A stretch of 14,124 nt of DNA. It comes from a virus. Lineage: Duplodnaviria; Heunggongvirae; Uroviricota; Caudoviricetes. The translations under genes and the position numbers were made by a program. The notes beneath the pieces are model-generated. The model was given only the letters and a program-made list of their open reading frames with translations, did not search any database and was not told where the DNA came from. Of this stretch, positions 1 through 14,124 are shown in pieces (position 1 is the stretch's first letter; each line of letters opens with the position of its first letter). The DNA lies in IMG/VR virus record IMGVR_UViG_2690316286_000003, positions 1-14,124 of that record, one strand, 5' to 3'.

Positions 1-2184
1 CTGAAAATAGCCCGGCGTCAGCTCAATCCGCGACAGCGCTGCCGGTGCGGCAATCCGGAACGATACCGACGCCGGATCGCCCTGCTGCCCCCACGCATTT
101 ACTGCCCGGACTGTCAGCCTGTAGTTCCCCAGCGCCAGTTGTGTGAAGCGGTAAGTGGTTTCCGTCGTCCGGGCCGTGCTGACCAGCCGCTCACTGCCGT
201 CATCCGCTGTTACGGTCAGACGGAGCAGGAAGCTCACGCCCTTCACCACCTTCGGCGTGTCCCAGCGCGCCAGCACCTGATATTCCCCGCTGTCTGCGGT
301 GACTTCGGCAGTCAGGTGCTGCACCGCTGGCGGCGTGACACCATTCACCGTGCCGCTCTGGTCGCCGTCAAAGTGCGCCCCGTTATCCACGATGGCTTCT
401 TTTTCCGGCACATGCTGCACGGCGGTGATGGCATACGTGCCGTCGTCGTTCTCACGGATACTCACGCAGCGGAACAATCGCTGGTGCAGCGTCGGCAGCT
501 TCAGCCCCCACACGCTGTATTCAGCAACACCGTCAGGAACACGGCTCACTTTTACCTTCACGCCGTCGGTGACGGACTGGACCTCCACGCTGACCGGATT
601 CCCCTGCCCGTCAACCAGGCTTATCAGCGTGGTGCCGGAGGATGGCAGCGTGATTTCACGGTCGAGCGTCAGCGTCCGGGTCTGGCTGTTCACCGCCAGC
701 ACGCGCCCGCCGGTGCGGATACCGGCATAGTCATCATCGCAGATTTCAATGACATCGCCCGGTACATGACGAAGCCCTTCAGCACCCACGCTGAAATCCA
801 CGGTCTGCGTCTCCAGCAGTTCCGTTTTAATCAGCCACAGCCCGGCGCGGTGTGCCTGCCCCCGGCTGGTACAGCCAAAGGCATCCATCTTCGTGACGTT
901 ACGACCGTAACGGACAATGGCCTGCGTATCCTCCACAAGCTCTGTCGCCGTCTCCCAGCCGTTATCCGGGTCAATCCAGTTCACCTCAACGGCATTATGG
1001 CGGTCTTTCAGGGCGCTGAAACTGTAGCGGAACGGCGCGCCATCATCCGGCATCACCACATTACTGCGGTTATAGGCCCACACCTTATCCGACTGTCGGT
1101 CCTGCACGAACGTCAGCGTCTGCCCGTTCCATACCGGCATACAGCGCATCGCCGAGCAGAAATCACTGAGCACATCCCACGCCTTGCGCTGTGTGGTCAG
1201 CCAGGCATTACAGGTGATGCGCGGCTCCGTGCTGCCAAAGCCGTCCGGCACCGACTGGTCACAGTACTGGCCGATGACATACAGCGCCCATTTATCCACA
1301 TCTGCCGCACCAAGACGTTTCCCCATGCCATAGCGCGGATGGGTCAGCATATCCCACAGACACCAGGCCATGTTGTTGCTGTATGCCGGTTTTAACGTTC
1401 CGTCCCAGATACCGCTGTATTGCCGCGTCTGCGGATTATAGTTCGACGGCACCTGCAGAATGCGCCCGCGAAGATGATAATTACGGCTCACCTGCTGGCT
1501 GCCGAACTGCTCCGAATCCACCTGTACGCCGACCAGTGCCGTGTTCGGGTAGCACTGTTTCACATCGATGATTTCGGTGTATGACGACCAGAGCGTTTTG
1601 TTCTGCAGCTGGTCTGTGGTGCTGTCCGGCGTCATTCTGCGCATCCGGATATTAAACGGGCGCGGCGGCAGGTTATCCACCACCACCGAGGCCAGATACT
1701 GCGAGGTGGTTTTGCCCTTAATGGTGATGTCTTTTTCCGTCACCCAGCCACCGTTACGCTGTATCTGAACCAGCAGGCGAACTTCAGACGGATTCCTGTC
1801 TCCCTTTGAGGTGGTTTCCACCAGTGCCTGTACACCGAAGGTAAAACGCAGTCGGTCAATGTTTGCCGACGTGATGGTCCGGGTGATCGGCGTGTCATAT
1901 TTCACTTCCGTACCCAGCACCGTCTCGGAGCCGGAGGATTCAAATCCCTCCGGCGGTGACTGCTCCTGCTCACCTGCCCGGAACACCACCGTGACGCCGG
2001 AGATGTTGGTATTCCCCTCACTGTCCAGCACCGGCGTACTGTTCAGCAGCACGCTTTTTAATCCATCCACCGGACCTTCAACCGGCCCTTCGCTGATGGC
2101 ATCGATCACACTCAGCAGCTGCGTGGACTTCAGGTTGTCCTTCGCTTCGCGCGGGGTATGCCCCTTACTGCTGCCTTTACCCAT
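1..2184 (-). CDS. J: Host-specificity / central tail fibre protein J, 5' portion (first 728 codons; 3' end lies beyond position 1)
   Basis: Minus-strand ATG at 2182..2184 with GGAG 8 nt upstream. Translation begins MGKGSSKGHTPREAKDNLKSTQLLSVID, which I recognise as the N-terminus of lambda gpJ. The frame length to the window edge is an exact multiple of 3. Plus-strand ORF 139..1395 is its antisense shadow. Confidence 0.9.
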   Translation of the reverse strand, partial: MGKGSSKGHTPREAKDNLKSTQLLSVIDAISEGPVEGPVDGLKSVLLNSTPVLDSEGNTNISGVTVVFRAGEQEQSPPEGFESSGSETVLGTEVKYDTPITRTITSANIDRLRFTFGVQALVETTSKGDRNPSEVRLLVQIQRNGGWVTEKDITIKGKTTSQYLASVVVDNLPPRPFNIRMRRMTPDSTTDQLQNKTLWSSYTEIIDVKQCYPNTALVGVQVDSEQFGSQQVSRNYHLRGRILQVPSNYNPQTRQYSGIWDGTLKPAYSNNMAWCLWDMLTHPRYGMGKRLGAADVDKWALYVIGQYCDQSVPDGFGSTEPRITCNAWLTTQRKAWDVLSDFCSAMRCMPVWNGQTLTFVQDRQSDKVWAYNRSNVVMPDDGAPFRYSFSALKDRHNAVEVNWIDPDNGWETATELVEDTQAIVRYGRNVTKMDAFGCTSRGQAHRAGLWLIKTELLETQTVDFSVGAEGLRHVPGDVIEICDDDYAGIRTGGRVLAVNSQTRTLTLDREITLPSSGTTLISLVDGQGNPVSVEVQSVTDGVKVKVSRVPDGVAEYSVWGLKLPTLHQRLFRCVSIRENDDGTYAITAVQHVPEKEAIVDNGAHFDGDQSGTVNGVTPPAVQHLTAEVTADSGEYQVLARWDTPKVVKGVSFLLRLTVTADDGSERLVSTARTTETTYRFTQLALGNYRLTVRAVNAWGQQGDPASVSFRIAAPAALSRIELTPGYFQ

Positions 2185-2244
2185 TCGTCATGCTCCATAA
2201 ACGATAAAACCGCCCGGAGGCGATTTCACATAAAACATTTTGCA

Positions 2245-2916
2245 TCAGCGACCAATCACCACAACCTGACCACCGTCCCCTTCGTCTGCCGTGCTGATCT
2301 CCTGAGATACCACACGTGACCCCACGCGCATTTCACCATACAGAACAGGCATAACATTGCCCTGGGCAACCATGTTATCCAGTGAGGAGAAATAGATGTT
2401 CTGCTTACCGTTATCCGTTGTCTGTGTGCGGGGAGTTCTGGCTTTCGGTGCCAGCATCTGAGCCACACCGCCGAGCACCATACTGGCACCGAGAGAAAAC
2501 AGAATGCCGGTCATACCACCGGCACCAATGGCAGCCCCCCATGCTGCAAGGGTGGCTCCGGCGGTAAAGAATGATCCGGCAATGGCGGCTGCTCCCAGGA
2601 CAATCTGGAATACACCACCTGACTTGGCCCCGGCGACTCTGGGAACAATATGAATCACAGCGCCGTCAGGCAGAGCCTCATGTAACTGCGCCGTTAATCC
2701 GGACGTGCTAACATCCTGCCCGGCAATACGCACCTGATACCAGCCGTCGCTCAGCTTCTGACGAAACGCAGGGAGCTGTGTGGCCATCGCCCGGATGGCT
2801 TCGGCACCCGTTTTCACACGAAGGTCGATGCGGCGGCCAAATCGTTGCAAATCCCCGTAAAGGCAGATGCGTGCCATGCCCGGTGACGCCAGAGGGAGTG
2901 TGTGCGTCGCTGCCAT
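2245..2916 (-). CDS. I: Tail tip assembly protein I (223 aa)
   Basis: ORF-track protein MAATHTLPLASPGMARICLYGDLQRF... with a Gly/Ala-rich hydrophobic centre; same length as lambda gpI; overlaps the 3' end of K by 103 nt, as I recall for lambda K/I. Confidence 0.9.
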   Translation of the reverse strand: MAATHTLPLASPGMARICLYGDLQRFGRRIDLRVKTGAEAIRAMATQLPAFRQKLSDGWYQVRIAGQDVSTSGLTAQLHEALPDGAVIHIVPRVAGAKSGGVFQIVLGAAAIAGSFFTAGATLAAWGAAIGAGGMTGILFSLGASMVLGGVAQMLAPKARTPRTQTTDNGKQNIYFSSLDNMVAQGNVMPVLYGEMRVGSRVVSQEISTADEGDGGQVVVIGR

Positions 2917-3557
2917 TTGTCGGTATACCTCTCTCGTTTGCTCAGTTGTTCAGGAATATGGTGCAGCAGCTCGCCGTCACCACAGTAAATGGCGGCATGA
3001 TTCGGCACCGATGAACCAAAACAGCACAGCAGCACATCGCCCGGCTGCGCCGCTGACAACGGCACCTGATACAGCCCTGTGGCCTCCAGATTATCCAGAT
3101 AGAGATTCTGACCGTGACGCCACCAGTCATCCTCACGATGAAAATCCGGCATCTCAATCCCCGCCAGATGGTAAGCATCCCGGAACAGCGTGTAACAGTC
3201 CGTCACCCCGTGCTCAAAGCGCCGCCCGGTAAGATGTGGCACACAGCGGAACTTGTGAATCGCCCCCCGGCAGACCAGCCACCACGGCAAATCACTCTGC
3301 ACCTGCAGCCGCCGGTCGGCCTCACTCAGCCAGGGCAGACCACCGGGGTGGCTGTGGACCAGTGCCACAATCTCACCCTGCATCTCTGCCTGCAGCCAGT
3401 CTTCCGGCGACATACGGAAATACGCCTCCGGCTCACCGGAGATATTCACGCAGGGGAAATATCTTTCCCCCTCCGGCGTTCTTACCACGAAGCCGCACGA
3501 CTCCGCTGGAGCACATCGCCGGGCGTGCGCCAGAATCGCTGATTCTGTCTCTGTCAT
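2814..3557 (-). CDS. K: Tail tip assembly protein K, MPN/JAMM-like plus NlpC/P60-like domains (247-aa ORF; the canonical 199-aa lambda start would be the internal ATG at 3411..3413)
   Basis: Contains HSHPGG...SEAD (JAMM-type HxH...S..D motif) and a downstream Cys/His pair (VTDCYTLF ... HAAIYCGDGELLHH) typical of NlpC/P60. The ORF's first ATG lies 5 nt after the L stop. Confidence 0.85.
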   Translation of the reverse strand: MTETESAILAHARRCAPAESCGFVVRTPEGERYFPCVNISGEPEAYFRMSPEDWLQAEMQGEIVALVHSHPGGLPWLSEADRRLQVQSDLPWWLVCRGAIHKFRCVPHLTGRRFEHGVTDCYTLFRDAYHLAGIEMPDFHREDDWWRHGQNLYLDNLEATGLYQVPLSAAQPGDVLLCCFGSSVPNHAAIYCGDGELLHHIPEQLSKRERYTDKWQRRTHSLWRHRAWHASAFTGICNDLAAASTFV

Positions 3558-3562
3558 GGGAT

Positions 3563-4261
3563 TTACTGCGAAAGTTTGTTAATGGAAAGGAAGCCGCCAA
3601 AGTTGCCGACGTTATTGCGAAACTTACAGCCACTCAGGCATTTGCTGCATTTATCCTTCGTGATGTCGGACGTTGGCTGGTCATATTCATCCGCGACCGC
3701 CGGACCGTGATAACCGCACTCATCGCCGCGATAGGTCCAGGTGCAGGTGTTGGCCAGCATGATACGTCCCGGAAAAACAGCGCCATCTGTTTCCGTCGGC
3801 GTGGACAGTACAAAAGAGGCACTCACCGCGCTCAGTTCGCTGCACTGCTCAATGCGCCAGCGGCTGATCACCTCCTGCTCCGGATCGGCGTCACTGTTTC
3901 CGTTGACGAAGTTCACCGCATCCAGAAAACGGGCGTAAACCTTACGCCGGACCACCGTTCCGCCGACCAGACTCTGTAGATCTTCCGCCATCCCGGTGAC
4001 CATACCGTACAGGTTAGAAACCATCAGCGTGGGGCGCGTACTGGTGCCTTTGCCATTCAGTTCAAAACCACTCCCCTGAATGGGATACGGCTGATACTGT
4101 CGCCCCTGCCAGGTGACCGGCTCACCTTTTTCGTTCTGCTCATTACAGAAAAAATAACGTTCTCCACCGACCTCTGTCAGATCGATTTCCCAGAGCACCA
4201 CGCTGGCCGACTGCTCCGCACGGGTGCATTCATTCAGTGTTTCCTGCCGGATATCCTGCAT
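3563..4261 (-). CDS. L: Tail tip protein L (232 aa), with C-terminal cysteine cluster
   Basis: MQDIRQETLNECTRAEQSASVVLWEIDL... and C-terminal DKCSKCLSGCKF cysteine motif, as in lambda gpL; start overlaps the M stop by 1 nt. Confidence 0.9.
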   Translation of the reverse strand: MQDIRQETLNECTRAEQSASVVLWEIDLTEVGGERYFFCNEQNEKGEPVTWQGRQYQPYPIQGSGFELNGKGTSTRPTLMVSNLYGMVTGMAEDLQSLVGGTVVRRKVYARFLDAVNFVNGNSDADPEQEVISRWRIEQCSELSAVSASFVLSTPTETDGAVFPGRIMLANTCTWTYRGDECGYHGPAVADEYDQPTSDITKDKCSKCLSGCKFRNNVGNFGGFLSINKLSQ

Positions 4262-4590
4262 CAGTTCACCACCTGTTCAAACTCTGCGCTGAACTCAACA
4301 CGCAGCATACTGACCCGCGACGACCATTTTGCGCAGGTCACCTTTATCTGCCGCCACTCATAAGGCGGCGTCCACAGAAAGGCTTTCCAGCCCCCGTGCT
4401 CTTCCAGAAACGACTCCAGTACCATGGCCTCCTCACGGGGGACAGAAAGCGTCACGCTGTACGTTTTCAGGTTGGCATTCAGCCCGGCAGGCGCTCGCTG
4501 GGAATAGCCATCACCAAAGCGCACCTTTCTTACAGAAGGGGCCGAAGCCACATCCATACCGGGTTTCACTTTCCAGCGGAAGGTTTTCAT
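4261..4590 (-). CDS. M: Minor tail protein M (109 aa)
   Basis: MKTFRWKVKPGMDVASAPSVRKVRFGDGYSQR...; 109 aa; start overlaps the H stop by 4 nt (ATGA arrangement). Confidence 0.9.
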   Translation of the reverse strand: MKTFRWKVKPGMDVASAPSVRKVRFGDGYSQRAPAGLNANLKTYSVTLSVPREEAMVLESFLEEHGGWKAFLWTPPYEWRQIKVTCAKWSSRVSMLRVEFSAEFEQVVN

Positions 4591-7148
4591 CGTCCACCTC
4601 CGGAGAACAGGCCACCATCACGCATCTGTGTCTGAATTTCATCACGGGCACCCTTGCGGGCCATGTCATACACGGCCTTCATCATCTGTGGACCTGGCAG
4701 ACCATTCGTACCGTCGTTCTGAATCACCACGTGATTGTTCTGATTAAAATTAATGCCTTCAGCCCGCCGCATCTGCGCCGGACTTCCGGCACCGCCCACA
4801 TAACCACCTTCCGCATAGCCGCGCATCAGCCGGTAGAGATTCCCCACGCCAATCCGGCTGGTTGCCTCCTTCGTGAAGACAAATTCACCACGGTGAACAA
4901 TCCCCGCTGGCTCATATTTGCCGCCGGTTCCCGTAAATCCCCCGGTTGCAAAATGGAATTTCGCCGCAGCGGCCTGAATGGCTGTACCACCTGACGCGGA
5001 TGCGCCGCCACCAACAGCCCCGCCAATGGCGCTGCCGATACTCCCGACAATCCCCACCATTGCCTGCTTAAGCAGAATTTCTGTCATCATGGACAGCACG
5101 GAGCGGGTGAAGCTGCGCCAGTTCTGTTCACTGCCGGTCAGCATCGCCGCCATATTCTGTGCAATACCATCAAAGGTCTGCGTGGCTGCACTTTTAACCT
5201 GTGACATACTGTCCGTGGCGCTCTCTTCCCACTCACTCCAGCCGGACTTCAGGCCTGCCATCCAGCTCCCGCGAAGCTGGTCTTCAGCCGCCCAGGTCTT
5301 TTTCTGCTCTGACATGACGTTATTCAGCGCCAGAGGATTATCGCCATACTGTTCCTTCAGGCGCTGTTCCGTGGCTTCCCGCGCTGCCTGCCGGTCAGTC
5401 AGCCCCCGGTTTTTCGCATCAATGGCTGCCCGTTTTGCCCGTTGCTGCTGTGCGAATTTATCCGCCTGCTGCGCCAGCGCATTCAGGTGCTCCTGATACG
5501 TAACCTTGTCACCAAGTGCAGCCAGCTGGCGTTTGTACTCCAGCGTCTCGTCTTTATGCGCCAGCAGGGATTTCTCCTGTGCGGACAGCTGGCGACGTTG
5601 TGCCGCCTCCTCCAGTACCGCGAACTGACTTTCTGCCTTCCACAAATCCCGGCGCTGCTGGCTGATTTTCTCATTCGCTCCGGCATGCTTCTCCAGCGTC
5701 CGGAGTTCTGCCTGAAGCGTCAGCAGGGCCGCATGAGCACTGTCTTCCTGACGATCGCCCGCATACACCTTCACGCCGGACTGTTTCGGCTTTTTCAGCG
5801 TCGCTTCATAATCCTTTTTCGCCGCCGCCATCAGCGTGTTGTAATCTGCCTGCAGGATTTTTCCGTCTTTCAGTGCCTTGTTCAGTTCTTCCTGACGGGC
5901 GGTATATTTCTCCAGCGGCGTCTGCAGCCGTTCGTAAGCCTTCTGCGCCTCTTCGGTATATTTCAGCCGTGACGCTTCGGTATCGCTCTGCTGCTGCGCA
6001 TTTTTGTCCTGTTGACGCTGTTGATCTACCCTCTTTTGGGCTGCATCCCGCTCCAGGCGTTTTTTTTCACGATCATCCCAGTAACGCGCCCGTGCTTCAT
6101 CGTTAACGAAATAATCATCCTTGCGCAGATTCCAGATGTCGTCTGCTTTCTTAAACGCAGCCTCTGCCTTAATCAGCATCTCCTGCGCGGTATCAGGACG
6201 ACCAATATCCAGCACCGCATCCCACATGGATTTGAATGCACGTGCAGTCCTGTCTGCCCAGGTCTCCAGCGTGCCCATGTTCTCTTTCAGGCGGCGGGTC
6301 TGGTCATCAAACCCTTTCGTTGCGGCCTCGTTCGCCGCCTGCAATGCCCCGGCTTCATCGCCGGAACGCTGCAACTGAGCAACATACGCAATCTGCTCCG
6401 CCGTCACGTTATGGAACTGGCGTGCCATCGCCGTCAGCCCCGACGTCGGGTCTGTGGTCAGCTTCCCGAAGGCTTCAGCGACCTTGTCCACCTCCACGCC
6501 GGATGCAGAGGAGAAACGCGCCACACTCTGGCTGATGGACGCAATCTGAGCCTCACCGCTTACCCCCGCCTTAACCAGTGCGCTGAGTGACTCGCTGGTC
6601 TGGTTAAACGTCAGCCCTGCCGCCTGCCCGGCTCTGGACAGGACCAGCATACGATCTGCCGTCAGTCCCGCCTGATTACCGGAAAGGACCAGCGTTTTGT
6701 TGAAATCGGACAGGGTTGAGTTGCCCTGATACCAGGCATACGCCAGCGCACCGGTCGCCACCGCCAGCGAGGTGGCCCCCACCATCGGCAGGGTGATCGC
6801 GCCGGCAAGCCCCCTGAACATGGGGATCATCCCGCCGAAGGAGTCCTTAACCTGACCACCCTGTTGCAGCAGGATCAGCCAGGGATTCTGCCCCCCTGCA
6901 AGCTGCGTGGCCACGTCGGTGAACTGTGCAGGCAGCATACGCATGGCGGCTTTATACTGCCCGACGGAAATCCCCGCTTTCTGTGCAGCCAGCGCCTGTC
7001 GGCTCAGCGACTGTTCAACGACTGCCGCTGTTTTTTTCGCATCACTTTCCGTACCGGAAAAATGACGCCTGACTCTGGCCATCTGCTCGTCAAATCTGGC
7101 CGCATCCAGACTCAAATCAACGACCAGATCGCCTACCGGTTCAGCCAT
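4587..7148 (-). CDS. H: Tail length tape measure protein H (853 aa), copy A
   Basis: 853-aa ORF starting MAEPVGDLVVDLSLDAARFDEQMARVRRHFSG...; long Ala/Gln/Lys/Arg-rich central region consistent with coiled coil; Gly-rich C-terminal region; position between T and M; length equals lambda gpH. Confidence 0.95.
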   Translation of the reverse strand: MAEPVGDLVVDLSLDAARFDEQMARVRRHFSGTESDAKKTAAVVEQSLSRQALAAQKAGISVGQYKAAMRMLPAQFTDVATQLAGGQNPWLILLQQGGQVKDSFGGMIPMFRGLAGAITLPMVGATSLAVATGALAYAWYQGNSTLSDFNKTLVLSGNQAGLTADRMLVLSRAGQAAGLTFNQTSESLSALVKAGVSGEAQIASISQSVARFSSASGVEVDKVAEAFGKLTTDPTSGLTAMARQFHNVTAEQIAYVAQLQRSGDEAGALQAANEAATKGFDDQTRRLKENMGTLETWADRTARAFKSMWDAVLDIGRPDTAQEMLIKAEAAFKKADDIWNLRKDDYFVNDEARARYWDDREKKRLERDAAQKRVDQQRQQDKNAQQQSDTEASRLKYTEEAQKAYERLQTPLEKYTARQEELNKALKDGKILQADYNTLMAAAKKDYEATLKKPKQSGVKVYAGDRQEDSAHAALLTLQAELRTLEKHAGANEKISQQRRDLWKAESQFAVLEEAAQRRQLSAQEKSLLAHKDETLEYKRQLAALGDKVTYQEHLNALAQQADKFAQQQRAKRAAIDAKNRGLTDRQAAREATEQRLKEQYGDNPLALNNVMSEQKKTWAAEDQLRGSWMAGLKSGWSEWEESATDSMSQVKSAATQTFDGIAQNMAAMLTGSEQNWRSFTRSVLSMMTEILLKQAMVGIVGSIGSAIGGAVGGGASASGGTAIQAAAAKFHFATGGFTGTGGKYEPAGIVHRGEFVFTKEATSRIGVGNLYRLMRGYAEGGYVGGAGSPAQMRRAEGINFNQNNHVVIQNDGTNGLPGPQMMKAVYDMARKGARDEIQTQMRDGGLFSGGGR

Positions 7149-7581
7149 ACCGGACTCCTCCTGCGATCCCTTCTGATACTGTCATCAGCATTACGTCATC
7201 CTCCGTCATGTCCGCCACATCCGGGGAAGCGGGGATAACTTCATTCCCGTCCGGGCCAAAGCGGACACCTCCGGCAAGCCCTGCCGCTTTCTGCATCAGC
7301 ACATCATCTTCAGGCTCTTCGTCAGCCTCGCGCCGGTTCAGCAGACTGAAATCCAGCGGATGCATCTCCGGATCGCTGAAAAACAGGCTGAGCACGGTGT
7401 ACGTCAGCCCGGAAAAGTGCATATCCAGCAGAACATCATGAAAATAATGGGTACTGTAAAAGCGGTGCCAGTCGGCATACTCCGTGGATGACATCCCGGC
7501 AAGCATGGCGCGCCAGTCGGGTCGCCCCATCTCACGCGCCAGTTTCAGGGCAAAACTCAGCTCACCGTCGAACACTTTCCC
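7141..7581 (-). CDS. T: T reading frame of the G-T tail assembly chaperone, reached by -1 frameshift from G (copy A)
   Basis: T-frame runs from the slippery heptamer at 7575..7581 to the stop at 7141..7143; encodes (V)FDGELSFALKLAREMGRPDWRAMLAGM...; overlaps the H start by 8 nt. Confidence 0.85.
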   Translation of the reverse strand, partial: GKVFDGELSFALKLAREMGRPDWRAMLAGMSSTEYADWHRFYSTHYFHDVLLDMHFSGLTYTVLSLFFSDPEMHPLDFSLLNRREADEEPEDDVLMQKAAGLAGGVRFGPDGNEVIPASPDVADMTEDDVMLMTVSEGIAGGVRYG

Positions 7582-7979
7582 GCAGAAACAGGCTCTGCAG
7601 GCCCGGCGTCCTCTGCCTGTTCAGGAGCATCATTCACCACAAACTCATACATACCGGACAGCCGGTACACCACGTTTTCAGCATGAGAAATTGCCTCTGT
7701 GGGCCAGGTGGTAAGCACTTCCTGCTCAATCTGTTTAACGGCTTCATTCATGGACGGCATCTGCGTCTTCTTCGGATGGTTATGCCACAGGGACATCGCA
7801 ACCACAAAAGCGCCGGTTCTGATGGCGTCTTCCACAGTAAACTTCCGGTTGCTGTCTGACTCCGCCTGTTCTGCCTGCCGTTTCATCAGGTCGAGATGCT
7901 CAATACGCTGCAGGGCTGACAGTTCAGAAAGCGTGACGGTCACACCGTTATGTTCAAATGATTCGGTTTTCAGGAACAT
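7557..7979 (-). CDS. G: Tail assembly chaperone G (140 aa), copy A
   Basis: MFLKTESFEHNGVTVTLSELSALQRIEHLDLMKRQAEQAES...; ends ..SAGKCSTVS just after the slippery site; 140 aa as in lambda gpG. Confidence 0.9.
   Translation of the reverse strand: MFLKTESFEHNGVTVTLSELSALQRIEHLDLMKRQAEQAESDSNRKFTVEDAIRTGAFVVAMSLWHNHPKKTQMPSMNEAVKQIEQEVLTTWPTEAISHAENVVYRLSGMYEFVVNDAPEQAEDAGPAEPVSAGKCSTVS
7575..7581 (-). other. Programmed -1 ribosomal frameshift slippery heptamer GGGAAAG (G to G-T), copy A
   Basis: Plus-strand CTTTCCC is GGGAAAG on the minus strand; read in the G frame as G|GGA|AAG (..SAGKCSTVS-stop) and in the -1 frame as GGG|AAA|G.. continuing into T. Confidence 0.8.
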
Positions 7980-7994
7980 CGCTGACTCTCCGGA

Positions 7995-8216
7995 TTAACT
8001 GGCGGTGACGTTGATTTCTGCAACCGCAGCAAACTCACCATTACCAGATACGACCGGAATGTTGACCTTGCCTGCAGCAACACCTTTCACGGTGATGGTC
8101 ATACCACTGACCGACACGGTGGCTTTTGTTTTATCCGCAGACACCGCACGGAAGCTCTTGTCGGTTGCGCCATCCGGCTGGAATGCCACGGTCAGCGTGG
8201 TGCTCTGCCCTTTCAC
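7995..8216 (-). pseudogene. 3' fragment (last 73 codons) of a major tail protein V gene: Ig-like (Big_2-type) C-terminal domain only, left at the duplication junction
   Basis: (GTG)[72 protein letters not shown] aligns to residues 174..250 of the full V at 12274..13026; no V N-terminal tube domain precedes it, the upstream sequence is L instead. Confidence 0.8.
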
Positions 8217-8509
8217 AGACTCTGCAGGTCTTCCGCCATCCCGGTGACCAGACCGAACAGATTGGACACCGTCAGCGACGGTCTGGCACTGCTGCCCCGG
8301 CCGTTCATCTCAAAGCCGCTGCCGTCAATCGGGTATGCCTCATACTTACGCCCCTGCCAGGTGACCGGCTCCCCTTTTTCATTCAGCTCATTACAGAAAA
8401 AATACCGCTCACCACCCTGTACCGTCAGGTCGATTTCCCAGAGTACCACCCGCGGTGACTGCTCTGACTTAACCGACTCGTTCAGACTTTCTTCGCGAAT
8501 ATCCTGCAT
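8213..8509 (-). pseudogene. Truncated tail tip protein L (first 98 codons only), copy B, ended by a stop created at the junction
   Basis: MQDIREESLNESVKSEQSPRVVLWEIDL...GMAEDLQSL-stop is collinear with residues 1..98 of the intact L (3563..4261), which continues ..SLVGGTVVRRK; the C-terminal cysteine cluster is missing. Confidence 0.8.
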
Positions 8510-8838
8510 CAGTTCACCACCTGCTTAAACTCCGCGCTGAACTCAACGCGCAACATCCCGACCCGCGCAGACCACCCGGCACAGGTCACCTTTATCTGCC
8601 GGTATGCATAGGGTGGCTTCCACAAAAATGCCTTCCAGCCACCGTGCTCTGCCAGGAACGCTTCCAGATGCCGGGCCTCCTCCCGGGTCACGGAAAGCGT
8701 CACCCTGTATGTTTTCAGGTCAGCATTCAGCCCTGCCGCCATACGCTGTGAGTACCCGTCACCAAAACGCACTTCACGCACCGATGGCTGCGAGTTCACC
8801 TCCATATCCGGCTTCACTTTCCAGCGAAAGGTTTTCAT
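8509..8838 (-). CDS. M: Minor tail protein M (109 aa), copy B
   Basis: MKTFRWKVKPDMEVNSQPSVREVRFGDGYSQR...; same length as copy A, roughly 83% identical by eye. Confidence 0.9.
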   Translation of the reverse strand: MKTFRWKVKPDMEVNSQPSVREVRFGDGYSQRMAAGLNADLKTYRVTLSVTREEARHLEAFLAEHGGWKAFLWKPPYAYRQIKVTCAGWSARVGMLRVEFSAEFKQVVN

Positions 8839-11408
8839 CCACCGCTCCCTGATAACATACCGCCATCACGCAACTGCAGCCGGAGTTCATCCTGTGCCCC
8901 CTTGCGGGCCATCTCATACACCGCTTTCATCAGCTGCGGCCCTGCCCGCCCGTTGGGGCCGTCGTTCTGAATCACCACGTGATTGTTCTGATTAAAATTA
9001 ATGCCTTCAGCCCGCCGCATCTGCGCCGGACTTCCGGCACCGCCGACATAACCACCTTCCGCATAGCCCCGCATCAGGCGGTACAGATTGCCGACACCAA
9101 TCCGGCTGGTCGCCTCCTTCGTGAAGACAAACTCCCCGCGATGAACAATCCCCGCAGGTTCATATTTACCCCCCGTCCCCGTAAATCCCCCGGTCGCGAA
9201 ATGGAAGTTCGCCGCCGCAGCCTGAATGGCCGTCCCCGTGGAGGCAGACGCACCACCACCGAAAGCACCGCCAATGGCGCTGCCGATACTCCCGACTATC
9301 CCCACCATCGCCTGCTTCAGAAAAATCTCTGTCAGCATGGACAGCACAGAACGGGTGAAACCACGCCAGTTCTGTTCGCTGCCGATCAGCATCGCTGCCA
9401 TATTCTGTGCAATACCGTCAAAGGTCTGCGTGGCCGCGTTTTTAACCTGCGAAAAACTGTCCGTCGCACTTTCCGCCCACTCGCCCCAGCCGGACTTCAT
9501 CCCGGCCATCCAGCTTCCACGAAGCTGCTCCTCCGCAGACCAGGTGTTCTTCAGTGCAGATGTGGCCTTCGCCAGCGCAGCCGGATTATCACCGTACACC
9601 TCACGAAGGCGCTGCTCTTCCGACTCCCGCTGCGCCTGACGGTCGGTGAGTCCGCGGGCTTTTGCGCTGATTGCCGCCTGCTTCGCGCTCTGCTGCTGTT
9701 CAAACCGCGCCGCCTGCTGTGCCAGCTCATTCAGCCGTTTCTGGTGTTCAATCTTGTCGCCCAGCTCAGCCAGCTGGCGTTTGTACTCCAGCGTTTCTTT
9801 CTCATGGGCCAGCAGGGATTTTTCCTGCTCAGATAACTGCCGTTTCGTGGCGGCCTCTTTCAGGACCACATACTGATTTTCCGCTTTCCATAAATCACGG
9901 CGCTGCTGGCTGATTTTTTCATTCGCACCGCTGTGCTTCTCCAGCGTCCTGAGCTCAGTTTCAAGCGCCAGCAGGGCTGCATGCGCCTGGTCTTCCTGGC
10001 GCTCACCGGCAGACACCTTCACACCGGACGGCTTTTTCTGCGTCGACTCATAATCCTTTTTTGCCGACGCCATCAGCGTGTTGTAATCCGCCTGCAGGAT
10101 TTTCCCGTCTTTCAGGGCCTTATTCAGCTCTTCCTGCCGGGCGGTATATTTCTCCAGTGGCGTCAGCAGGCGCTCATACGCCTTCTGCGCCTCTCCGGTA
10201 TACTTCAGCTGTGACGACTCACGCTCAGCCCTGTCCCTTGCCGCCAGTTCACCGGCTTTTTCCATATCCGACTGCAGCGTTGCCGCTGCCAGACCCAGAC
10301 GGGCATTTTCCCGGTCATCCCATGCGCCCTGAAGGTTGGCCCGGAAAGAGGAGGTTTTACCGCGGCGCTGGCTCCGACTCTGGTACCACTGCCATTTTTT
10401 ATCCGCCTCATCAAATGCCTTCTGCGCACTGGCGAGCATATCCGCTGAGGATTCCGGACGACCGATATCCAGAATGGCATCCCACATCGATTTGAATGCC
10501 TTCCCTGTTTTATCCGCCCAGGTCTCCAGTGTTCCCATGTTTTCTTTCAGGCGACGGGTCTGCTCATCAAAGCCTTTCGTGGCGATATCGTTCGCCGCCT
10601 GCAATGCCCCGGCCTCGTCTCCGGAACGCTGCAGCTGTGCAACATACGCAATCTGCTCTGCCGTCACGTTACGGAACTGGCGCGCCATCGCCATCAGTCC
10701 CGACGTCGGGTCAGTGGTCAGCTTCCCGAAGGCTTCAGCGACTTTATCCACCTCCACACCGGATGCAGACGCAAAACGCGCGACACTCTGGTTGATGGCA
10801 TCAAACTGTTCACCACCACGCACACCGGCATTCACCAGGGCTGCCAGTGACTCTCTCGCCTGGTTAAACGTCAGCCCTGCTGCCTGCCCGGCTCTTGAGA
10901 GAGTCAGCATACGATCGGCAGTCAGTCCGGACTGATTACCGGAAAGAACCAGGGTTTTATTAAACGCTGAAAGCGTGGAATCTCCCTGGTACCAGGCGTA
11001 CACCAGTGCACCTGTCGCCACCGCCAGCGAGGTGACCCCGACCATCGGCAGGGTGATCGCATCGGCAAGCCCCCTGAACATGGGGATCATCCCGCCGAAG
11101 GAGTCCTTCACCTGACCGCCCTGTTGCAGCAGGATCAGCCAGGGATTCTGACCACCGGCAAGCTGCGTGGCGATATCCGTAAACTGTGCGGGCAGGGTTC
11201 GCATGGCCGCTTTATACTGCCCGACGGAAATCCCGGCTTTTTGTGCAGCCAGCGCCTGGCGGCTCAGGCCCTGTTCAACAGCACTGGCGGTTTTTCTGGC
11301 GTCGGTATCCAGACCTGAAAAATGACGCCTTACCCGGCTCATCTGCTCATCGAAACGGACAGCATCCAGACTCAGGTCAATAACAAGATCACCAACCGGC
11401 TGGGACAT
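8835..11408 (-). CDS. H: Tail length tape measure protein H (857 aa), copy B (divergent)
   Basis: MSQPVGDLVIDLSLDAVRFDEQMSRVRRHFSG...; collinear with copy A over its full length, with a divergent central block and a near-identical C-terminal region. Confidence 0.95.
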   Translation of the reverse strand: MSQPVGDLVIDLSLDAVRFDEQMSRVRRHFSGLDTDARKTASAVEQGLSRQALAAQKAGISVGQYKAAMRTLPAQFTDIATQLAGGQNPWLILLQQGGQVKDSFGGMIPMFRGLADAITLPMVGVTSLAVATGALVYAWYQGDSTLSAFNKTLVLSGNQSGLTADRMLTLSRAGQAAGLTFNQARESLAALVNAGVRGGEQFDAINQSVARFASASGVEVDKVAEAFGKLTTDPTSGLMAMARQFRNVTAEQIAYVAQLQRSGDEAGALQAANDIATKGFDEQTRRLKENMGTLETWADKTGKAFKSMWDAILDIGRPESSADMLASAQKAFDEADKKWQWYQSRSQRRGKTSSFRANLQGAWDDRENARLGLAAATLQSDMEKAGELAARDRAERESSQLKYTGEAQKAYERLLTPLEKYTARQEELNKALKDGKILQADYNTLMASAKKDYESTQKKPSGVKVSAGERQEDQAHAALLALETELRTLEKHSGANEKISQQRRDLWKAENQYVVLKEAATKRQLSEQEKSLLAHEKETLEYKRQLAELGDKIEHQKRLNELAQQAARFEQQQSAKQAAISAKARGLTDRQAQRESEEQRLREVYGDNPAALAKATSALKNTWSAEEQLRGSWMAGMKSGWGEWAESATDSFSQVKNAATQTFDGIAQNMAAMLIGSEQNWRGFTRSVLSMLTEIFLKQAMVGIVGSIGSAIGGAFGGGASASTGTAIQAAAANFHFATGGFTGTGGKYEPAGIVHRGEFVFTKEATSRIGVGNLYRLMRGYAEGGYVGGAGSPAQMRRAEGINFNQNNHVVIQNDGPNGRAGPQLMKAVYEMARKGAQDELRLQLRDGGMLSGSGG

Positions 11409-11853
11409 ATCTCACACCTCCCGGAATCCCCGCTGAAGCCATCATTAATGCGGCATCATCCACCATGACATCCGCCACATCCGCAGACGATAAAATATCG
11501 CGCCCTCCGTCCCCACCGAACCGGACGCCTCCGGCAAGTCCTGCCGCTTTCTGCATCAGCATTTTGTCCTCATCCGGCCTCTCCACCTGCTCTTCCTCAT
11601 GCCGGGGGACAAGCAGACTGAAATCAGAGGGATGCATATCCGGATCGCAAAAAAACAGGCTGAGTACAGCGTACGTCAGCCCGGAAAAATGCATATCCAG
11701 CTGGGTATCCTGAAAATAATGCGTGCGGTAAAAACGGCGCCAGTCGGCATATTCGGTGGATGTCATCCCGGCAAGCATGGCGCGCCAGTCGGGTCTCCCC
11801 ATCTCACGCGCCAGTCTGAGGGCAAAGTTCAGCTCGCCGTCGAAGACTTTCCC
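11389..11853 (-). CDS. T: T reading frame of the G-T tail assembly chaperone, reached by -1 frameshift from G (copy B)
   Basis: -1 frame from the slippery heptamer reads GKVFDGELNFALRLAREMGRPDWRAMLAGM... and ends ..GVRYVPAGW-stop; overlaps the H copy B start by 20 nt. Confidence 0.85.
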   Translation of the reverse strand, partial: GKVFDGELNFALRLAREMGRPDWRAMLAGMTSTEYADWRRFYRTHYFQDTQLDMHFSGLTYAVLSLFFCDPDMHPSDFSLLVPRHEEEQVERPDEDKMLMQKAAGLAGGVRFGGDGGRDILSSADVADVMVDDAALMMASAGIPGGVRYVPAGW

Positions 11854-12260
11854 GCAGAAAAATCATCATCAGTCAGCGTGTTATTTTTCGCCACTTCAGT
11901 AATATCAGTATCCGGACGAACAGCTTCGATCATCCCGGACAGGCACAACACCACGTCTTCCGCCCGGGCAATGGCATCGGCAGGCCAGGTGGTGAGCACT
12001 TCCTGCTCTATCTTCATCACGGCCTCATTCATTGACGGTGACTGCGTTTTCTGTGGATGGTTATGCCACAGGGACATCGCCACCAGAAACGCGCCGGTTC
12101 TGACGAGATCTTCCACGCTTACCTGCAGGTTGCCGCTGGATTCTGCCTGTTCTGCACGCCGTTTCAGGAGGGCAAGATGCTCGATACGCTGCAGCGCAGA
12201 CAATTCGGAAAGCGTGACAGACACACCGTTATATTCAAATTGTTCTGTTTTCAGAAACAT
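11829..12260 (-). CDS. G: Tail assembly chaperone G (143 aa), copy B
   Basis: MFLKTEQFEYNGVSVTLSELSALQRIEHLALLKRRAEQAES...; collinear with copy A G. Confidence 0.9.
   Translation of the reverse strand: MFLKTEQFEYNGVSVTLSELSALQRIEHLALLKRRAEQAESSGNLQVSVEDLVRTGAFLVAMSLWHNHPQKTQSPSMNEAVMKIEQEVLTTWPADAIARAEDVVLCLSGMIEAVRPDTDITEVAKNNTLTDDDFSAGKSSTAS
11847..11853 (-). other. Programmed -1 ribosomal frameshift slippery heptamer GGGAAAG (G to G-T), copy B
   Basis: Plus-strand CTTTCCC; G frame reads ..SAGKSSTAS-stop through G|GGA|AAG; same heptamer and same position as copy A. Confidence 0.8.
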
Positions 12261-12273
12261 GTATTACCTCCGT

Positions 12274-13026
12274 TTACCCTGCAGCGCCCGCTTCAGTAAC
12301 GGTGACTTCAGCCACTGCGGCGAACTGACCATTTCCGCTCACCACAGGGATCTGCACCTTACCTGTCGCCACGCCGTTTACCGTAATTGTCATATCTTTC
12401 ACACTAATGGTGGCTTTCGACGGATCGGCGGAAACCGCTCTGAACGTCTTGTCGGTTGCACTTTCCGGCTCAAAAGAAACCGTCAGGGTGGTTGTTTTCC
12501 CTTTTGCCACCGTACCGGATGTCGGCGTCACCTTAATCGCACTGACCGGCGTAATTTTGCTGCGTTCTTCCGCTACAGAAGGTTTACCCACGTTAGTGAC
12601 TTTCACCGTGCGGGTGATCACTTCTTTCGCCGTCACGGCCTTACCGATACTGCTGACCCAGCCACGAAACACATCCACCGTGCCATTCGGAAAACGGATT
12701 TTATAGGCCCGGACATCGCCGCTTTCAAACCAGCCTATAAGCCCTTTCTGGCCTTCCTCTCCCGGTTTCCAGGCCAGCGTAAAACTGGTATCACCTGCAG
12801 ATTTCTGCCCCTGCCCGGTCGCGCTCCAGTCCGCGTCTTCATCATCCAGGTAGTTATCATCATAGGATTCAGCCGTCATCTCGCCCGGCGTCAGATCCTT
12901 CACCTTAGCCAGTCGCTGCCAGTCATCGTCTGACAACGGGTTTGCATAAGCATCAGCCTTGCCGTTGTAAACCCACAGAGTGGTACCGGCACCTTTTACC
13001 GGCTCCAGGGGATTTGGTGTTGCCAT
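12274..13026 (-). CDS. V: Major tail (tube) protein V (250 aa) with C-terminal Ig-like domain
   Basis: [49 protein letters not shown]...; C-terminal [23 protein letters not shown]...[17 protein letters not shown] is Ig-like; located between U and G. Confidence 0.9.
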
Positions 13027-13033
13027 ATCGTCC

Positions 13034-13429
13034 TCACATCTCGTATGTAATGGAATAAGTCAGATCCGCAGAGCTCCATAACGCCATATCGTCATCACGA
13101 CGATACTCATAGCCCTGCGTAACCATCGTGGTAATCAGTCCTGCCAGTGCAGGGATCGCAGTCATCGCCGGATAAATCCGGCTTTCCATCCACTGATCGA
13201 GCTCCGAATCAGGTACCTGTGCCGGTAAAAACACCTCAATATGCAGTGTGGCCCGCCAGGTATCTGCATCCAGCTCTTCACCGGTATACTCTGCATCCGT
13301 CAGATAAACCGCGATCGCAGGAAAATCCTCTTCGTCAAAAACAACGGGGCGACCATCAAACAGCGTCGCCCCGTGTTCATGCTGCTCGAGTGCATCCAGC
13401 ACTGCGGCACGAATGTCAGTGTGTTTCAT
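13034..13429 (-). CDS. U: Tail tube terminator protein U (131 aa)
   Basis: [54 protein letters not shown]...; 131 aa as in lambda gpU; position between Z and V. Confidence 0.88.
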
Positions 13430-14001: not shown

Positions 14002-14015
14002 AATTCACCCTGCGT

Positions 14016-14124
14016 TTATCGTCGCCGGTTAACTGCGGGTGGTTGCCCACGGTTGAGCCAGAGATAACAGCTGCCCCCGTCATCCGGAGATGTCAGCGCC
14101 AGTGATATAAGACGGTAATTCGCC
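14016..14124 (-). CDS. 3' end of an upstream ORF, probably the head-tail joining protein FII (5' end beyond the window)
   Basis: Open minus-strand frame from the window edge (..ANYRLISLALTSPDDGGSCYLWLNRGQPPAVNRRR) to TAA at 14016..14018, 14 nt before the Z start; identity inferred from synteny only. Confidence 0.4.
   Translation of the reverse strand, partial: ANYRLISLALTSPDDGGSCYLWLNRGQPPAVNRRR

What the first reader, a model, noticed from the sequence alone, without database searches (positions are those of the whole stretch)
1..8216. Left half looks like phage lambda itself, right half like a divergent relative
From memory, the proteins of copy A (G, T, H, M, L, K, I, J N-terminus and the V fragment ..[18 protein letters not shown]) match lambda almost residue for residue. 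Z, U, V and copy B of G/T/H/M/L' are clearly related but substituted throughout. This points to an inter-phage recombinant rather than an in-place duplication, and raises the question of whether the lambda-like half is laboratory or vector-derived.
Basis: partly seen in the sequence, partly recalled or inferred. Interest (0 to 1): 0.5.

Follow-up and report, generated by a model that had tools for sequence, protein, structure and literature searches.

The report
Two Shigella prophage tails, probably misjoined
The window is an exact splice of the tail-gene blocks of two different lambda-like prophages that lie 558 kb apart in finished Shigella sonnei chromosomes; the lambda-like half is a natural prophage and not laboratory lambda, and the splice is most likely an assembly error.

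Summary
The similarity contrast is real but overstated. Window 1-8216 is 96.1% identical to lambda in DNA (322 differences; proteins 94-99%), and 8216-14124 is about 78% (proteins 70-80%). So the left half is not lambda itself and not vector-derived. It is 100.000% identical (8216/8216) to a resident prophage ("A") of Shigella sonnei chromosome CP032523.1. The right half is 99.97% identical to a second, IS-truncated prophage ("B") of the same chromosome and of S. sonnei 53G. In finished genomes A and B are 558 kb apart with intact V and L. In the window they meet at a blunt, non-homologous point (L codon 98 | V codon 174). That junction is absent from every collection searched.

I judge it an assembly or scaffolding chimera (about 0.7). 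Both contig ends run 34 nt into repeats, as in a k=35 graph contig. Copy B carries A's allele at the one mismatch inside an 86-nt shared patch. Sister contigs with the same ends join B to A at other points, or with single-N joins. The A part starts exactly on a major identity-block boundary. A real illegitimate recombination (about 0.25) is not excluded: the junction has no N, and my contig-end controls were only mildly supportive. Nothing here is new biology.

The parts
1..34 (.). Contig end: the last 34 nt lie inside a 42-nt segment of J that is identical in prophages A and B
   Evidence: Exact A/B match L021 17115-17156; the window ends at L021 17148. IMG/VR contigs L065 and L131 end at the same base.
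1..2184 (-). J (central tail fibre), copy A, N-terminal 728 codons; runs off the window end
   Evidence: 97.4% aa identity to lambda J; 100% DNA identity to prophage A of CP032523.1
2245..2916 (-). I, copy A
   Evidence: ORF; 97.3% aa to lambda I; PF06805 on the identical gene in L021
2814..3557 (-). K, copy A
   Evidence: ORF; 97.2% aa to lambda K; PF14464/PF00877
3563..4261 (-). L, copy A, complete (232 aa)
   Evidence: 98.3% aa to lambda L; PF05100
4261..4590 (-). M, copy A
   Evidence: 97.2% aa to lambda M
4587..7148 (-). H tape measure, copy A (853 aa)
   Evidence: 95.7% aa to lambda H; the exact protein is in 482 blocks, including S. sonnei-type chromosomes CP032523.1 and CP041511.1
4711..4796 (.). 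86-nt segment identical to 8959-9044 (copy A instance)
   Evidence: In reference genomes the A/B identity here is 35 nt + 1 mismatch + 50 nt.
7141..7575 (-). T reading frame, copy A (expressed as G-T by -1 frameshift in lambda); slippery GGGAAAG at 7575-7581
   Evidence: 99.3% aa to the lambda T frame; slippery site present. The frameshift itself is inferred from established lambda biology, not tested.
7557..7979 (-). G tail assembly chaperone, copy A
   Evidence: 96.4% aa to lambda G; the exact protein occurs only in A-type contexts in the genomes read
7995..8216 (-). C-terminal 72-73 codons of V, copy A (Ig-like Big_2 domain only); N-terminal 173 codons missing
   Evidence: The intact 246-aa V is in L021.
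8213..8219 (.). Junction: ...GAGTCT G TGAAAGGG... (gene strand). Base 8216 (G) fits both parents. There is no homology between the partners.
   Evidence: The 42-mer across it is absent from GTDB representative genomes, IMG/VR and JGI metagenomes. No phage record or complete E. coli genome spans it.
8213..8509 (-). L, copy B, first 98 codons only; the TGA stop is created at the junction
   Evidence: The intact 232-aa L is in prophage B of finished genomes.
8509..8838 (-). M, copy B
   Evidence: 79.8% aa to lambda M; the exact protein is very common, 31,706 blocks
8835..11408 (-). H tape measure, copy B (857 aa)
   Evidence: 78.0% aa to lambda H; the exact protein is in CP032523.1, HE616528.1 and other chromosomes
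8959..9044 (.). 86-nt segment identical to 4711-4796 (copy B instance). Base 9009 carries prophage A's allele instead of B's.
   Evidence: on the gene strand this is T in the window and in A, but G in 12 of the 14 B-type loci examined (C in L004, a more distant relative)
11389..11802 (-). T frame, copy B; slippery GGGAAAG at 11847-11853
11829..12260 (-). G, copy B
   Evidence: 71.2% aa to lambda G
12274..13026 (-). V major tail protein, copy B, complete (250 aa)
   Evidence: 78.3% aa to lambda V
13034..13429 (-). U, copy B
   Evidence: 80.2% aa to lambda U
13426..14001 (-). Z, copy B
   Evidence: 70.1% aa to lambda Z
14091..14124 (.). Contig end: 34 nt of the terminus of an IS21-family element (TGTCAGCGCC...) that truncates prophage B upstream of Z
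   Evidence: Homology of L027 to the intact relative L042 starts at L027 7319; the window starts at L027 7285. IstA/IstB genes lie next to it in L027-L036.

Best explanation
The window is a whole short-read contig from a Shigella sonnei-type genome. It strings together pieces of two different resident lambda-like prophages. The right part (8216-14124) is the tail block Z-U-V-G-T-H-M-L' of a defective, IS21-truncated prophage B. The left part (1-8216) is 'V-G-T-H-M-L-K-I-J' of prophage A, a natural relative of lambda at 96% DNA identity. In the real chromosome these are separate loci about 558 kb apart, each with intact V and L.

The splice (L codon 98 to V codon 174) is most likely not biological. 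I think a de Bruijn assembler or scaffolder working at about k=35 got tangled in the two 78%-identical tail modules. These share several exact 35-53-nt patches. It then placed a B piece and an A piece in series and closed the join without an N.

Shown: the identity of both halves, their separate locations in finished genomes, the absence of the junction elsewhere, the graph-type contig ends, the allele swap, and inconsistent joins in sister assemblies. Inferred: that the junction itself was produced by software. The exact software step is unknown.
For: (1) Parents: window 1-8216 is 8216/8216 identical to L021 (CP032523.1, 4.83-4.85 Mb) and to L023. Window 8216-14124 differs from L027 (same chromosome, 4.27-4.30 Mb) by 2 synonymous bases. 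L028 (S. sonnei 53G) is equally close at 99.97%, although the two differing positions are not both the same. Each parent continues normally past the breakpoint.

(2) Chromosome coordinates are X = 4,283,236 and Y = 4,841,480. The join runs from the higher coordinate to the lower one. If real, it would require a 558-kb tandem duplication or circle, not a deletion.

(3) The junction is absent from 50,697 phage records, 5,426 complete E. coli genomes, GTDB representatives, IMG/VR and JGI metagenomes.

(4) Both window ends extend exactly 34 nt into repeats: the IS21 terminus at one end and the 42-nt A/B patch in J at the other. This indicates a complete k=35 graph contig.

(5) Copy B carries A's base at window 9009, the only mismatch between the shared 35-mer and 50-mer. 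This is what bubble-popping between co-resident A and B would give.

(6) Sister contig L131 has the same two ends but is 9,876 nt, which is the window minus 4,248. It switches cleanly from B to A inside the 35-nt patch. Sister scaffolds L141, L123 and L065 join A and B(-like) tail pieces in series with single-N joins. Some of the joined pieces overlap in true coordinates. L139 runs through X normally. So the assemblies of this family disagree with each other exactly here.

(7) The A part begins on the first base of an identity block shared with 15 lambda-like V alleles: mismatch at -1, next mismatch at +44. X lies 2-3 nt inside a block start for B-like L alleles. Scaffold L005 has its N-gap at X, with 31-nt overlapping flanks.
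Against: There is no N and no duplicated overlap at the junction, and graph assemblers do not normally butt-join nodes.

A and B share no 34-mer or longer at X or Y. So a third and a fourth allele must be assumed in the source genome to make those points node ends. The G_A look-up found only A-type contexts in the genomes read. Typical S. sonnei assemblies run through both X and Y.

The B part ends 2-3 nt away from where a k=35 node would end for the alleles I have.

The contig-end recurrence controls were weak. On the V side there were 4 contigs at the junction codon against 2 and 2 at control codons. On the L side the 98-aa form had 15 contigs against 2-8 for other truncation lengths, and that allele is very abundant overall.

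Sharp block starts are frequent: 121 in 9.1 kb of A and 70 in 6.9 kb of B. The chance coincidence is therefore about 0.4-4% for Y and about 7% for X. That is supportive, not decisive.

Real illegitimate junctions in prophage tail genes do exist in finished genomes (L043, L001).
Confidence: 0.7

Rival explanations
1. The junction is real. An illegitimate (non-homologous or 1-nt microhomology) recombination in one Shigella sonnei strain joined defective prophage B, broken in L, to prophage A, broken in V. Possible routes are: a homology-facilitated event anchored in the 91-98%-identical J segment, with an illegitimate left end; a single illegitimate crossover that integrated a circular phage A genome into L of B; or the novel joint of a 558-kb tandem duplication. 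The product would be a defective hybrid prophage with two full G/T/H/M sets.
For: The sequence is continuous, with no N or overlap artefact at the junction. One base is shared at the joint. Real truncation-and-fusion junctions in lambdoid tail genes are seen in finished chromosomes: in L043, L is cut at 211 aa and fused to another phage's lysis genes; in L001 there is a T-H deletion. A and B share no k-mer that would make X or Y graph node ends on their own. Typical S. sonnei assemblies do not break there.
Against: The junction occurs in no other record, and the reciprocal joint is absent from JGI metagenomes. With the gene order of finished genomes it requires a 558-kb duplication or a second copy of A. 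A second copy of A would itself create a graph branch at Y and should break a k=35 contig. The breakpoints coincide with identity-block starts. The A allele is present in copy B. Sister assemblies join A and B at other, mutually exclusive points.
Confidence: 0.25
2. The two parts were separate contigs that were simply placed end to end when the record or the window was built: concatenated contigs, or a removed or filled one-base gap. In that case no assembler graph path was involved. This is a sub-case of the artefact explanation.
For: Sister scaffolds in IMG/VR use single-N joins between prophage pieces (L065, L123, L141). The outer ends of the window are true contig ends. Several independent assemblies have contig ends within 2 nt of X.
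Against: The inner ends do not show the 34-nt run-in to a repeat that the outer ends show. I have no direct evidence that the source had an N here. The window contains no N.
Confidence: 0.15
3. The left half is laboratory lambda or a lambda-derived cloning vector that contaminated the sample or was spliced in.
For: Only the overall resemblance and gene order.
Against: There are 322 nucleotide differences from lambda in 8,216 nt, spread over all genes, with two strongly divergent patches in H. All lambda and vector-derived records (lambda, DE3, imm434, HK629/630) sit at 96.1-96.3%. The segment is 100.000% identical to a chromosomal S. sonnei prophage.
Confidence: 0.01
4. An in-place tandem duplication of the V-to-L segment occurred within one prophage, and the two copies then diverged.
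For: The head-to-tail topology, with a 4,248-nt offset.
Against: The copies are only 78-80% identical. Each is 99.97% or more identical to a different resident prophage at a different chromosomal site.
Confidence: 0.01

Closest known systems
Resident lambdoid prophage 'A' of Shigella sonnei (e.g. CP032523.1 4,827,851-4,850,412; contigs FTUS01000059.1, AAUFWJ010000066.1)
   Same: Window 1-8216 is identical base for base (8216/8216), with the same genes 'V-G-T-H-M-L-K-I-J.
   Different: In the chromosome V is intact (246 aa) and is preceded by Nu1...Z, U of the same prophage. In the window V starts at codon 174, directly after L' of another prophage.
Defective IS21-truncated prophage 'B' of Shigella sonnei (CP032523.1 4,273,855-4,296,428; S. 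sonnei 53G HE616528.1 2,078,857-2,101,430)
   Same: Window 8216-14124 differs from it by 2 synonymous bases, one of which is prophage A's allele. It has the same IS21 insertion point upstream of Z.
   Different: In the chromosome L is intact (232 aa) and is followed by B's own K, I, J. In the window L stops at codon 98.
Bacteriophage lambda (Lambdavirus lambda) tail module
   Same: Same gene order. Copy A proteins are 94-99% identical to lambda's. The G-T slippery heptamer GGGAAAG is conserved in both copies.
   Different: Copy A has 322 nt differences from lambda, with mosaic patches in H. Copy B is only 70-80% identical in protein. This is not lambda itself.
Escherichia phage 204576 (CP025907.1) and the PhiR12 / PhiR5 phages (PV340545-PV340554)
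   Same: These are the closest named phage records to copy B, at 95.7-97.3% DNA identity over Z...L'.
   Different: They have a complete L followed by their own K-I-J and carry no second tail block.
Paralogue serial-placement and repeat mis-threading errors of short-read assemblers and scaffolders
   Same: Two diverged copies of one module from the same genome are placed in tandem. Alleles are swapped inside a shared patch. Sister assemblies give different joins (L131, L141, L123, L065).
   Different: Here the join carries no N and is not at a sequence shared by the two copies, so the exact software step remains unidentified.

Membership tests
Phage lambda itself (laboratory strain or lambda-derived vector) | Near-identity (at least 99.9%) to the lambda reference across the tail genes | tested here: not met
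   96.1% identity, 322 differing columns in 8,216 nt. All lambda-derived records sit at 96.1-96.3%.
Phage lambda itself (laboratory strain or lambda-derived vector) | Vector-specific or engineered sequences adjacent (stuffer, polylinker, deletions b2/nin5) | not testable with these tools
   The window holds only tail genes, and the regions that are altered in vectors are not in it.
Lambda-type siphovirus tail module (Z-U-V-G-T-H-M-L-K-I-J) | Conserved gene order with the family domains (Minor_tail_Z, Phage_tail_U, Phage_TTP_12+Big_2, Phage_TAC_2, Phage_tail_T, TMP_2+Tape_meas_lam_C, Phage_min_tail, Phage_tail_L, NLPC_P60, Lambda_tail_I, GpJ domains) | tested here: met
   ORFs. Precomputed Pfam hits on the identical genes in L005, L021 and L027. 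Protein identity to lambda.
Lambda-type siphovirus tail module (Z-U-V-G-T-H-M-L-K-I-J) | G/G-T chaperone pair with the slippery heptamer GGGAAAG near the end of G | tested here: met
   GGGAAAG is present in both copies (window 7575-7581 and 11847-11853, - strand), in the same context as lambda. Frameshifting itself was not tested.
Resident Shigella sonnei prophages A and B | Exact or near-exact DNA identity to the chromosomal loci, including the strain-lineage marker (IS21 insertion upstream of Z in B) | tested here: met
   A 8216/8216. B 5907/5909, with the same IS terminus and insertion point. HE616528.1 is S. sonnei 53G. NCBI labels exact A-type V fragments as Shigella sonnei.
In-place tandem duplication | The two copies derive from one another (near-identical, or each other's closest relative) | tested here: not met
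   The copies are 78-80% identical, and each has a match of at least 99.97% at a different locus.
Assembly or scaffolding chimera | Both partners exist intact and separate in finished genomes of the same lineage, and the junction is found nowhere else | tested here: met
Assembly or scaffolding chimera | Breakpoints coincide with assembly-graph node boundaries or contig ends | tested here: inconclusive
   Y lies exactly on a major identity-block start (15 alleles). X lies 2-3 nt inside a minor one and at an N-gap or contig end in other assemblies. However, block starts are frequent, the contig-end controls show only mild enrichment, and no third allele was shown in typical S. sonnei.
Assembly or scaffolding chimera | Independent assemblies of the same loci disagree, and other assembler fingerprints are present | tested here: met
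   L131 switches B to A inside the 35-nt patch. L141, L123 and L065 have single-N joins. L139 is normal. The A allele sits in copy B. Both contig ends run 34 nt into repeats.
Assembly or scaffolding chimera | No reads or read pairs support the junction | not testable with these tools
   The source assembly and its reads were not identified. The junction and the window's contig are not in the searchable collections.
Real illegitimate or homology-facilitated recombinant prophage | The junction is reproducible in independent genomes or reads | tested here: not met
   Absent from all collections searched. The reciprocal joint is absent from JGI metagenomes. Reads were not available.
Real illegitimate or homology-facilitated recombinant prophage | Microhomology of a few bases at the joint | tested here: inconclusive
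   Only 1 shared base (G at 8216), which is expected by chance in 1 of 4 cases.

The most novel reading that the evidence does not exclude
The junction is genuine. In one Shigella sonnei strain, an illegitimate recombination grafted prophage A's 'V-G-T-H-M-L-K-I-J onto the defective prophage B inside gene L. The event may have been anchored by the near-identical J segment. It would leave a hybrid prophage with two complete, 80%-identical tape-measure and chaperone sets. That would be a snapshot of how lambdoid tail modules are exchanged by non-homologous joins.
Probability: 0.22. Interest if true: 0.3.

Novelty: already known. Interest (0 to 1): 0.1.

Why it matters
It matters mainly as a caution. 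A striking 'duplicated tail operon, half lambda, half relative' turns out to be two already-sequenced resident prophages of Shigella sonnei, put in series most likely by software. It should not be counted as a recombinant phage, a laboratory contaminant or a gene duplication. If the junction were real, it would be a modest example of illegitimate module exchange between co-resident prophages, which is a process already well documented in lambdoid phages.

Tried and rejected
1. Recurrent contig end at L codon 98. At first this looked decisive: the exact 98-aa L' is in 93 blocks, nearly all at contig ends. I downgraded it after controls. The M/L' allele is in 31,706 blocks. Truncated L fragments of many lengths exist, each with 2-8 contigs against 15 for the 98-aa form. 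The 96-aa control (7 blocks) is a different allele, so it is not a clean control.

2. Recurrent contig start at V codon 174. There were 4 contigs at the junction codon against 2 and 2 at two control codons, which is background level. The only suggestive point is that two of the four are isolate-type contigs 99.95% identical to A.

3. X as a sharp mosaic boundary among the first set of complete-genome loci: not seen. With more alleles, a block start appears at X-2 for some alleles.

4. A or B as each other's repeat partner at X or Y: rejected, because there is no shared 25-mer or longer there.

5. H81/H82 as a similar junction: rejected. It is an unrelated T-H deletion in an O157-type prophage.

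6. Tracing the source through a rare protein allele: both private SNPs are synonymous. The SNP 41-mer turned out to be the A-type sequence and hit 83 IMG/VR contigs. That led to the informative sister contigs but not to the source.

7. The 73-aa V ORF annotated in S. sonnei (SIY26145.1) is probably not the source. The only carrying contig I inspected (L019) has a frameshifted V, and all the carrying contigs are 20-200 kb, not 14 kb.

8. Search for a third prophage sharing the block after Y, through G_A: only A-type contexts were found.

9. The k-mer arithmetic for the inner ends (k=33 fits X and Y, k=35 fits the outer ends) could not be made consistent, so I make no claim from it.

Full report
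OBSERVATION. All genes lie on the - strand. The two blocks match each other at 78-80% DNA identity with an offset of 4,248 nt (8216-12504 against 3968-8213).

Against lambda, window 1-8216 aligns end to end at 96.1% with 322 differing columns. Identity falls to 74.5% in 4601-4796 and 89% in 5997-6196. Window 8216-14090 aligns at 75-78%. Protein identities to lambda are 94-99% for the left copy and 70-80% for the right copy. However, 'lambda itself, almost residue for residue' is not correct, and by the finding's own criterion that part is refuted.

WHAT THE TWO HALVES ARE. Exact-protein look-ups of the two tape-measure proteins led to the same finished chromosome, CP032523.1, at two different places. 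Window 1-8216 is 8216/8216 identical to the prophage at 4.83-4.85 Mb ("A"), and also to contig FTUS01000059.1. Window 8216-14124 is 5907/5909 identical to the prophage at 4.27-4.30 Mb ("B"), and S. sonnei 53G (HE616528.1) is equally close (the organism of HE616528.1 is confirmed in PMC5447701). NCBI also labels exact fragments of A's V protein as Shigella sonnei.

In these genomes A is a complete Nu1-to-tail-fibre prophage with an intact 246-aa V. B is a remnant whose head region is replaced by IS elements, but its Z-to-J block is otherwise intact, with a 232-aa L. The two breakpoints map to 4,283,236 (X, in L of B) and 4,841,480 (Y, in V of A), which are 558,244 nt apart on the same strand. 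The lambda-like half is therefore a natural chromosomal prophage. A laboratory or vector origin is excluded.

THE JUNCTION. On the gene strand it reads ...GAAGACCTGCAGAGTCT-G-TGAAAGGGCAGAGC.... B would continue GGTGGGGGCC, and A is preceded by ...GCTTCCGTA. Only the single G is common to both. L is cut after codon 98 and meets a TGA at once. V is represented only by its C-terminal Ig-like domain. The partners share no homology at this point. A and B share no exact match of 25 nt or more at X or Y.

No phage record (50,697) and no complete E. coli genome (5,426) spans the junction. A 42-mer across it is absent from GTDB representative genomes, IMG/VR and JGI metagenomes. With the gene order of the finished chromosome, the join runs from the higher coordinate to the lower one. 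That is the signature of a tandem duplication or a circle, not of a deletion.

IS THE JUNCTION REAL? EVIDENCE FOR AN ARTEFACT.

(a) The window is a complete graph-type contig. Its Z-side end consists of exactly 34 nt of the terminus of the IS21-family element that truncates B (TGTCAGCGCC...). Homology of L027 to an intact relative begins 34 nt inside the window. Its J-side end stops exactly 34 nt into a 42-nt segment that is identical in A and B. Two independent ends both giving 34 nt point to k=35.

(b) One of the two differences from B, window 9009, is A's allele at the single mismatch that separates a shared 35-mer from a shared 50-mer. As a result the window contains an 86-nt exact repeat (4711-4796 = 8959-9044) that the finished genomes do not have. 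This is what bubble-popping between two co-resident copies produces.

(c) Sister contigs disagree with one another. IMG/VR contig L131 has the same start and the same end as the window but is 9,876 nt long, exactly one repeat unit (4,248 nt) shorter. It is pure B up to position 5080 and pure A from 5116 on, so it switches inside the 35-nt patch. L139 starts at the same base and runs normally through X. L141 is a scaffold of A's L, then N, then B from its IS boundary through its J gene, then N, then A's J. L123 is B-like ...M-L', then N, then A H'-M-L, then N, then L''-K-I, then N, then IS. That gives the same kind of pseudo-duplication as the window, but with visible one-base joins between pieces that in truth overlap. 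L065 has a single N exactly where its A-type part begins, and it ends at the same J base as the window.

(d) The A part of the window begins on the first base of an identity block. In 15 lambda-like V alleles the nearest upstream mismatch to A is at -1, with 13-17 mismatches in the preceding 150 nt, and the next downstream mismatch is at +44. That makes it a node boundary in any graph that also contains such an allele. X lies 2-3 nt inside a similar block start for some B-like L alleles. It is also where scaffold L005 has its N-gap, with 31-nt overlapping flanks, and where several contigs end.

WEAKNESSES OF THE ARTEFACT READING. I checked them and they are real.

- The apparent 'recurrent contig end' at L codon 98 (93 blocks) shrinks once abundance is considered. 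The M/L' allele is in 31,706 blocks. Truncated L fragments of many other lengths have 2-8 contigs each, against 15 for this one.
- On the V side, the junction codon has 4 contig starts against 2 and 2 at control codons.
- Sharp block starts are common: 121 positions in 9.1 kb of A and 70 in 6.9 kb of B. Chance coincidence is therefore about 4% for Y (0.4% if only the dozen major boundaries count) and about 7% for X.
- A and B alone do not create node ends at X or Y.
- Typical S. sonnei assemblies run through both points.
- I found no third prophage carrying G_A in the genomes read.
- The junction carries no N.
- I could not reconstruct a consistent k for the inner ends.
- Real truncation-and-fusion junctions in these very genes exist in finished genomes (L043, L001).

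MOST LIKELY EXPLANATION. Weighing these points, I put about 0.7 on an assembly or scaffolding chimera. That figure includes the sub-case of two contigs abutted with a closed or stripped one-base gap. I put about 0.25 on a genuine illegitimate recombination in one strain: homology-facilitated with the anchor in J, integration of a circular A genome into L of B, or a duplication joint. I put about 0.01 each on laboratory lambda and on in-place duplication.

Shown: the identities, the locations, the absence of the junction elsewhere, the contig-end geometry, the allele swap, and the inconsistent sister assemblies. Inferred: that software made the join, and by which step.

COMPARISON WITH THE KNOWN. 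Both blocks are ordinary members of the lambda-type tail module. They have the same order and the same Pfam families, and both copies carry the GGGAAAG G-T slippery site. Copy A is a 96% relative of lambda, 434 and HK629/630. Copy B is closest to phage 204576 and the PhiR12 group, at 96-97%. Neither copy is new, since both are already present base for base in finished S. sonnei chromosomes.

VERDICT. The finding describes a real pattern in the sequence, but the pattern has an ordinary explanation. Novelty: already known. The 'recombinant' is probably not a real feature. Interest is low (0.1). The most novel reading not excluded is a real hybrid prophage with two tape-measure sets (probability about 0.22, interest 0.3 if true).

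Noticed in passing
window 9009 (and the repeat 4711-4796 = 8959-9044): Copy B carries prophage A's base at the only mismatch between two A/B-shared patches. This creates an 86-nt exact repeat that finished genomes lack. It could be bubble-popping or a tiny gene conversion.
   Followed up: yes
window 8216 relative to L027 12450 and 13942: The L breakpoint lies almost exactly midway (743 nt against 749 nt) between the two nearest A/B shared patches of 35 nt or more (the end of H, and K). I have no explanation; it may be coincidence or a trace of a gap-closing step.
   Followed up: no
window 8213-8216; L021 8933: The V breakpoint is the start of V's C-terminal Ig-like (Big_2) domain. It is also a population-level mosaic boundary: upstream, A's V differs by about 10% from lambda-like alleles; downstream it is nearly identical to them.
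   Followed up: partly
L019 9480-10222 (ENA k141_44968); NCBI SIY26145.1 (S. sonnei): In L019, V is split into 173-aa and 73-aa ORFs by a 2-nt insertion just upstream of the Ig-like domain. The 73-aa ORF is identical to the window's V fragment, and the S. sonnei entry SIY26145.1 has the same 73-aa sequence. Whether the Ig domain is still expressed there, for example by frameshifting, was not examined.
   Followed up: no
window 14091-14124; L027 4278-7318: Prophage B in S. sonnei has lost its head genes. IS elements (IS21 family, and an IS with HTH_Tnp_1/rve domains) sit between the lysis genes and Z, so B cannot be a viable phage.
   Followed up: partly
L131 (IMGVR_UViG_2698536458_000001), whole contig: This is a B-to-A hybrid contig with the same ends as the window. 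It switches inside a 35-nt shared patch. It is probably a mis-threaded repeat, but it could be a homologous recombinant.
   Followed up: partly
L141 462 and 12034; L123 8199, 9658, 11532; L065 5497: Single-N joins in IMG/VR contigs derived from draft genomes link prophage pieces that are non-adjacent or overlapping in true coordinates. Viral contig collections built from scaffolds inherit such chimeras.
   Followed up: partly
L043 10330-11124 (CP035330.1, complete genome): L is truncated at 211 aa and directly followed by the lysis and terminase genes of a different prophage. This is a genuine illegitimate fusion of two prophages in a finished chromosome.
   Followed up: no
L001 9620-10210 (NZ_AP027188.1; the same in NZ_CP074904.1): In an O157-type prophage, a deletion fuses the start of T to the end of H, removing most of the tape measure. 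The genes are annotated as pseudogenes.
   Followed up: no
hit H19 (MW057783.1): A record named 'Campylobacter phage CJLB-4' (48,361 nt) matches the window exactly as lambda does, with the same score and equivalent coordinates. It looks like lambda under a Campylobacter label and may be contamination in that record.
   Followed up: no
window 4601-4796 and 5997-6196: Two short patches of tape-measure gene H in copy A are much more diverged from lambda (74.5% and 89%) than the rest (95-99.5%). This is small-scale mosaicism inside H.
   Followed up: no
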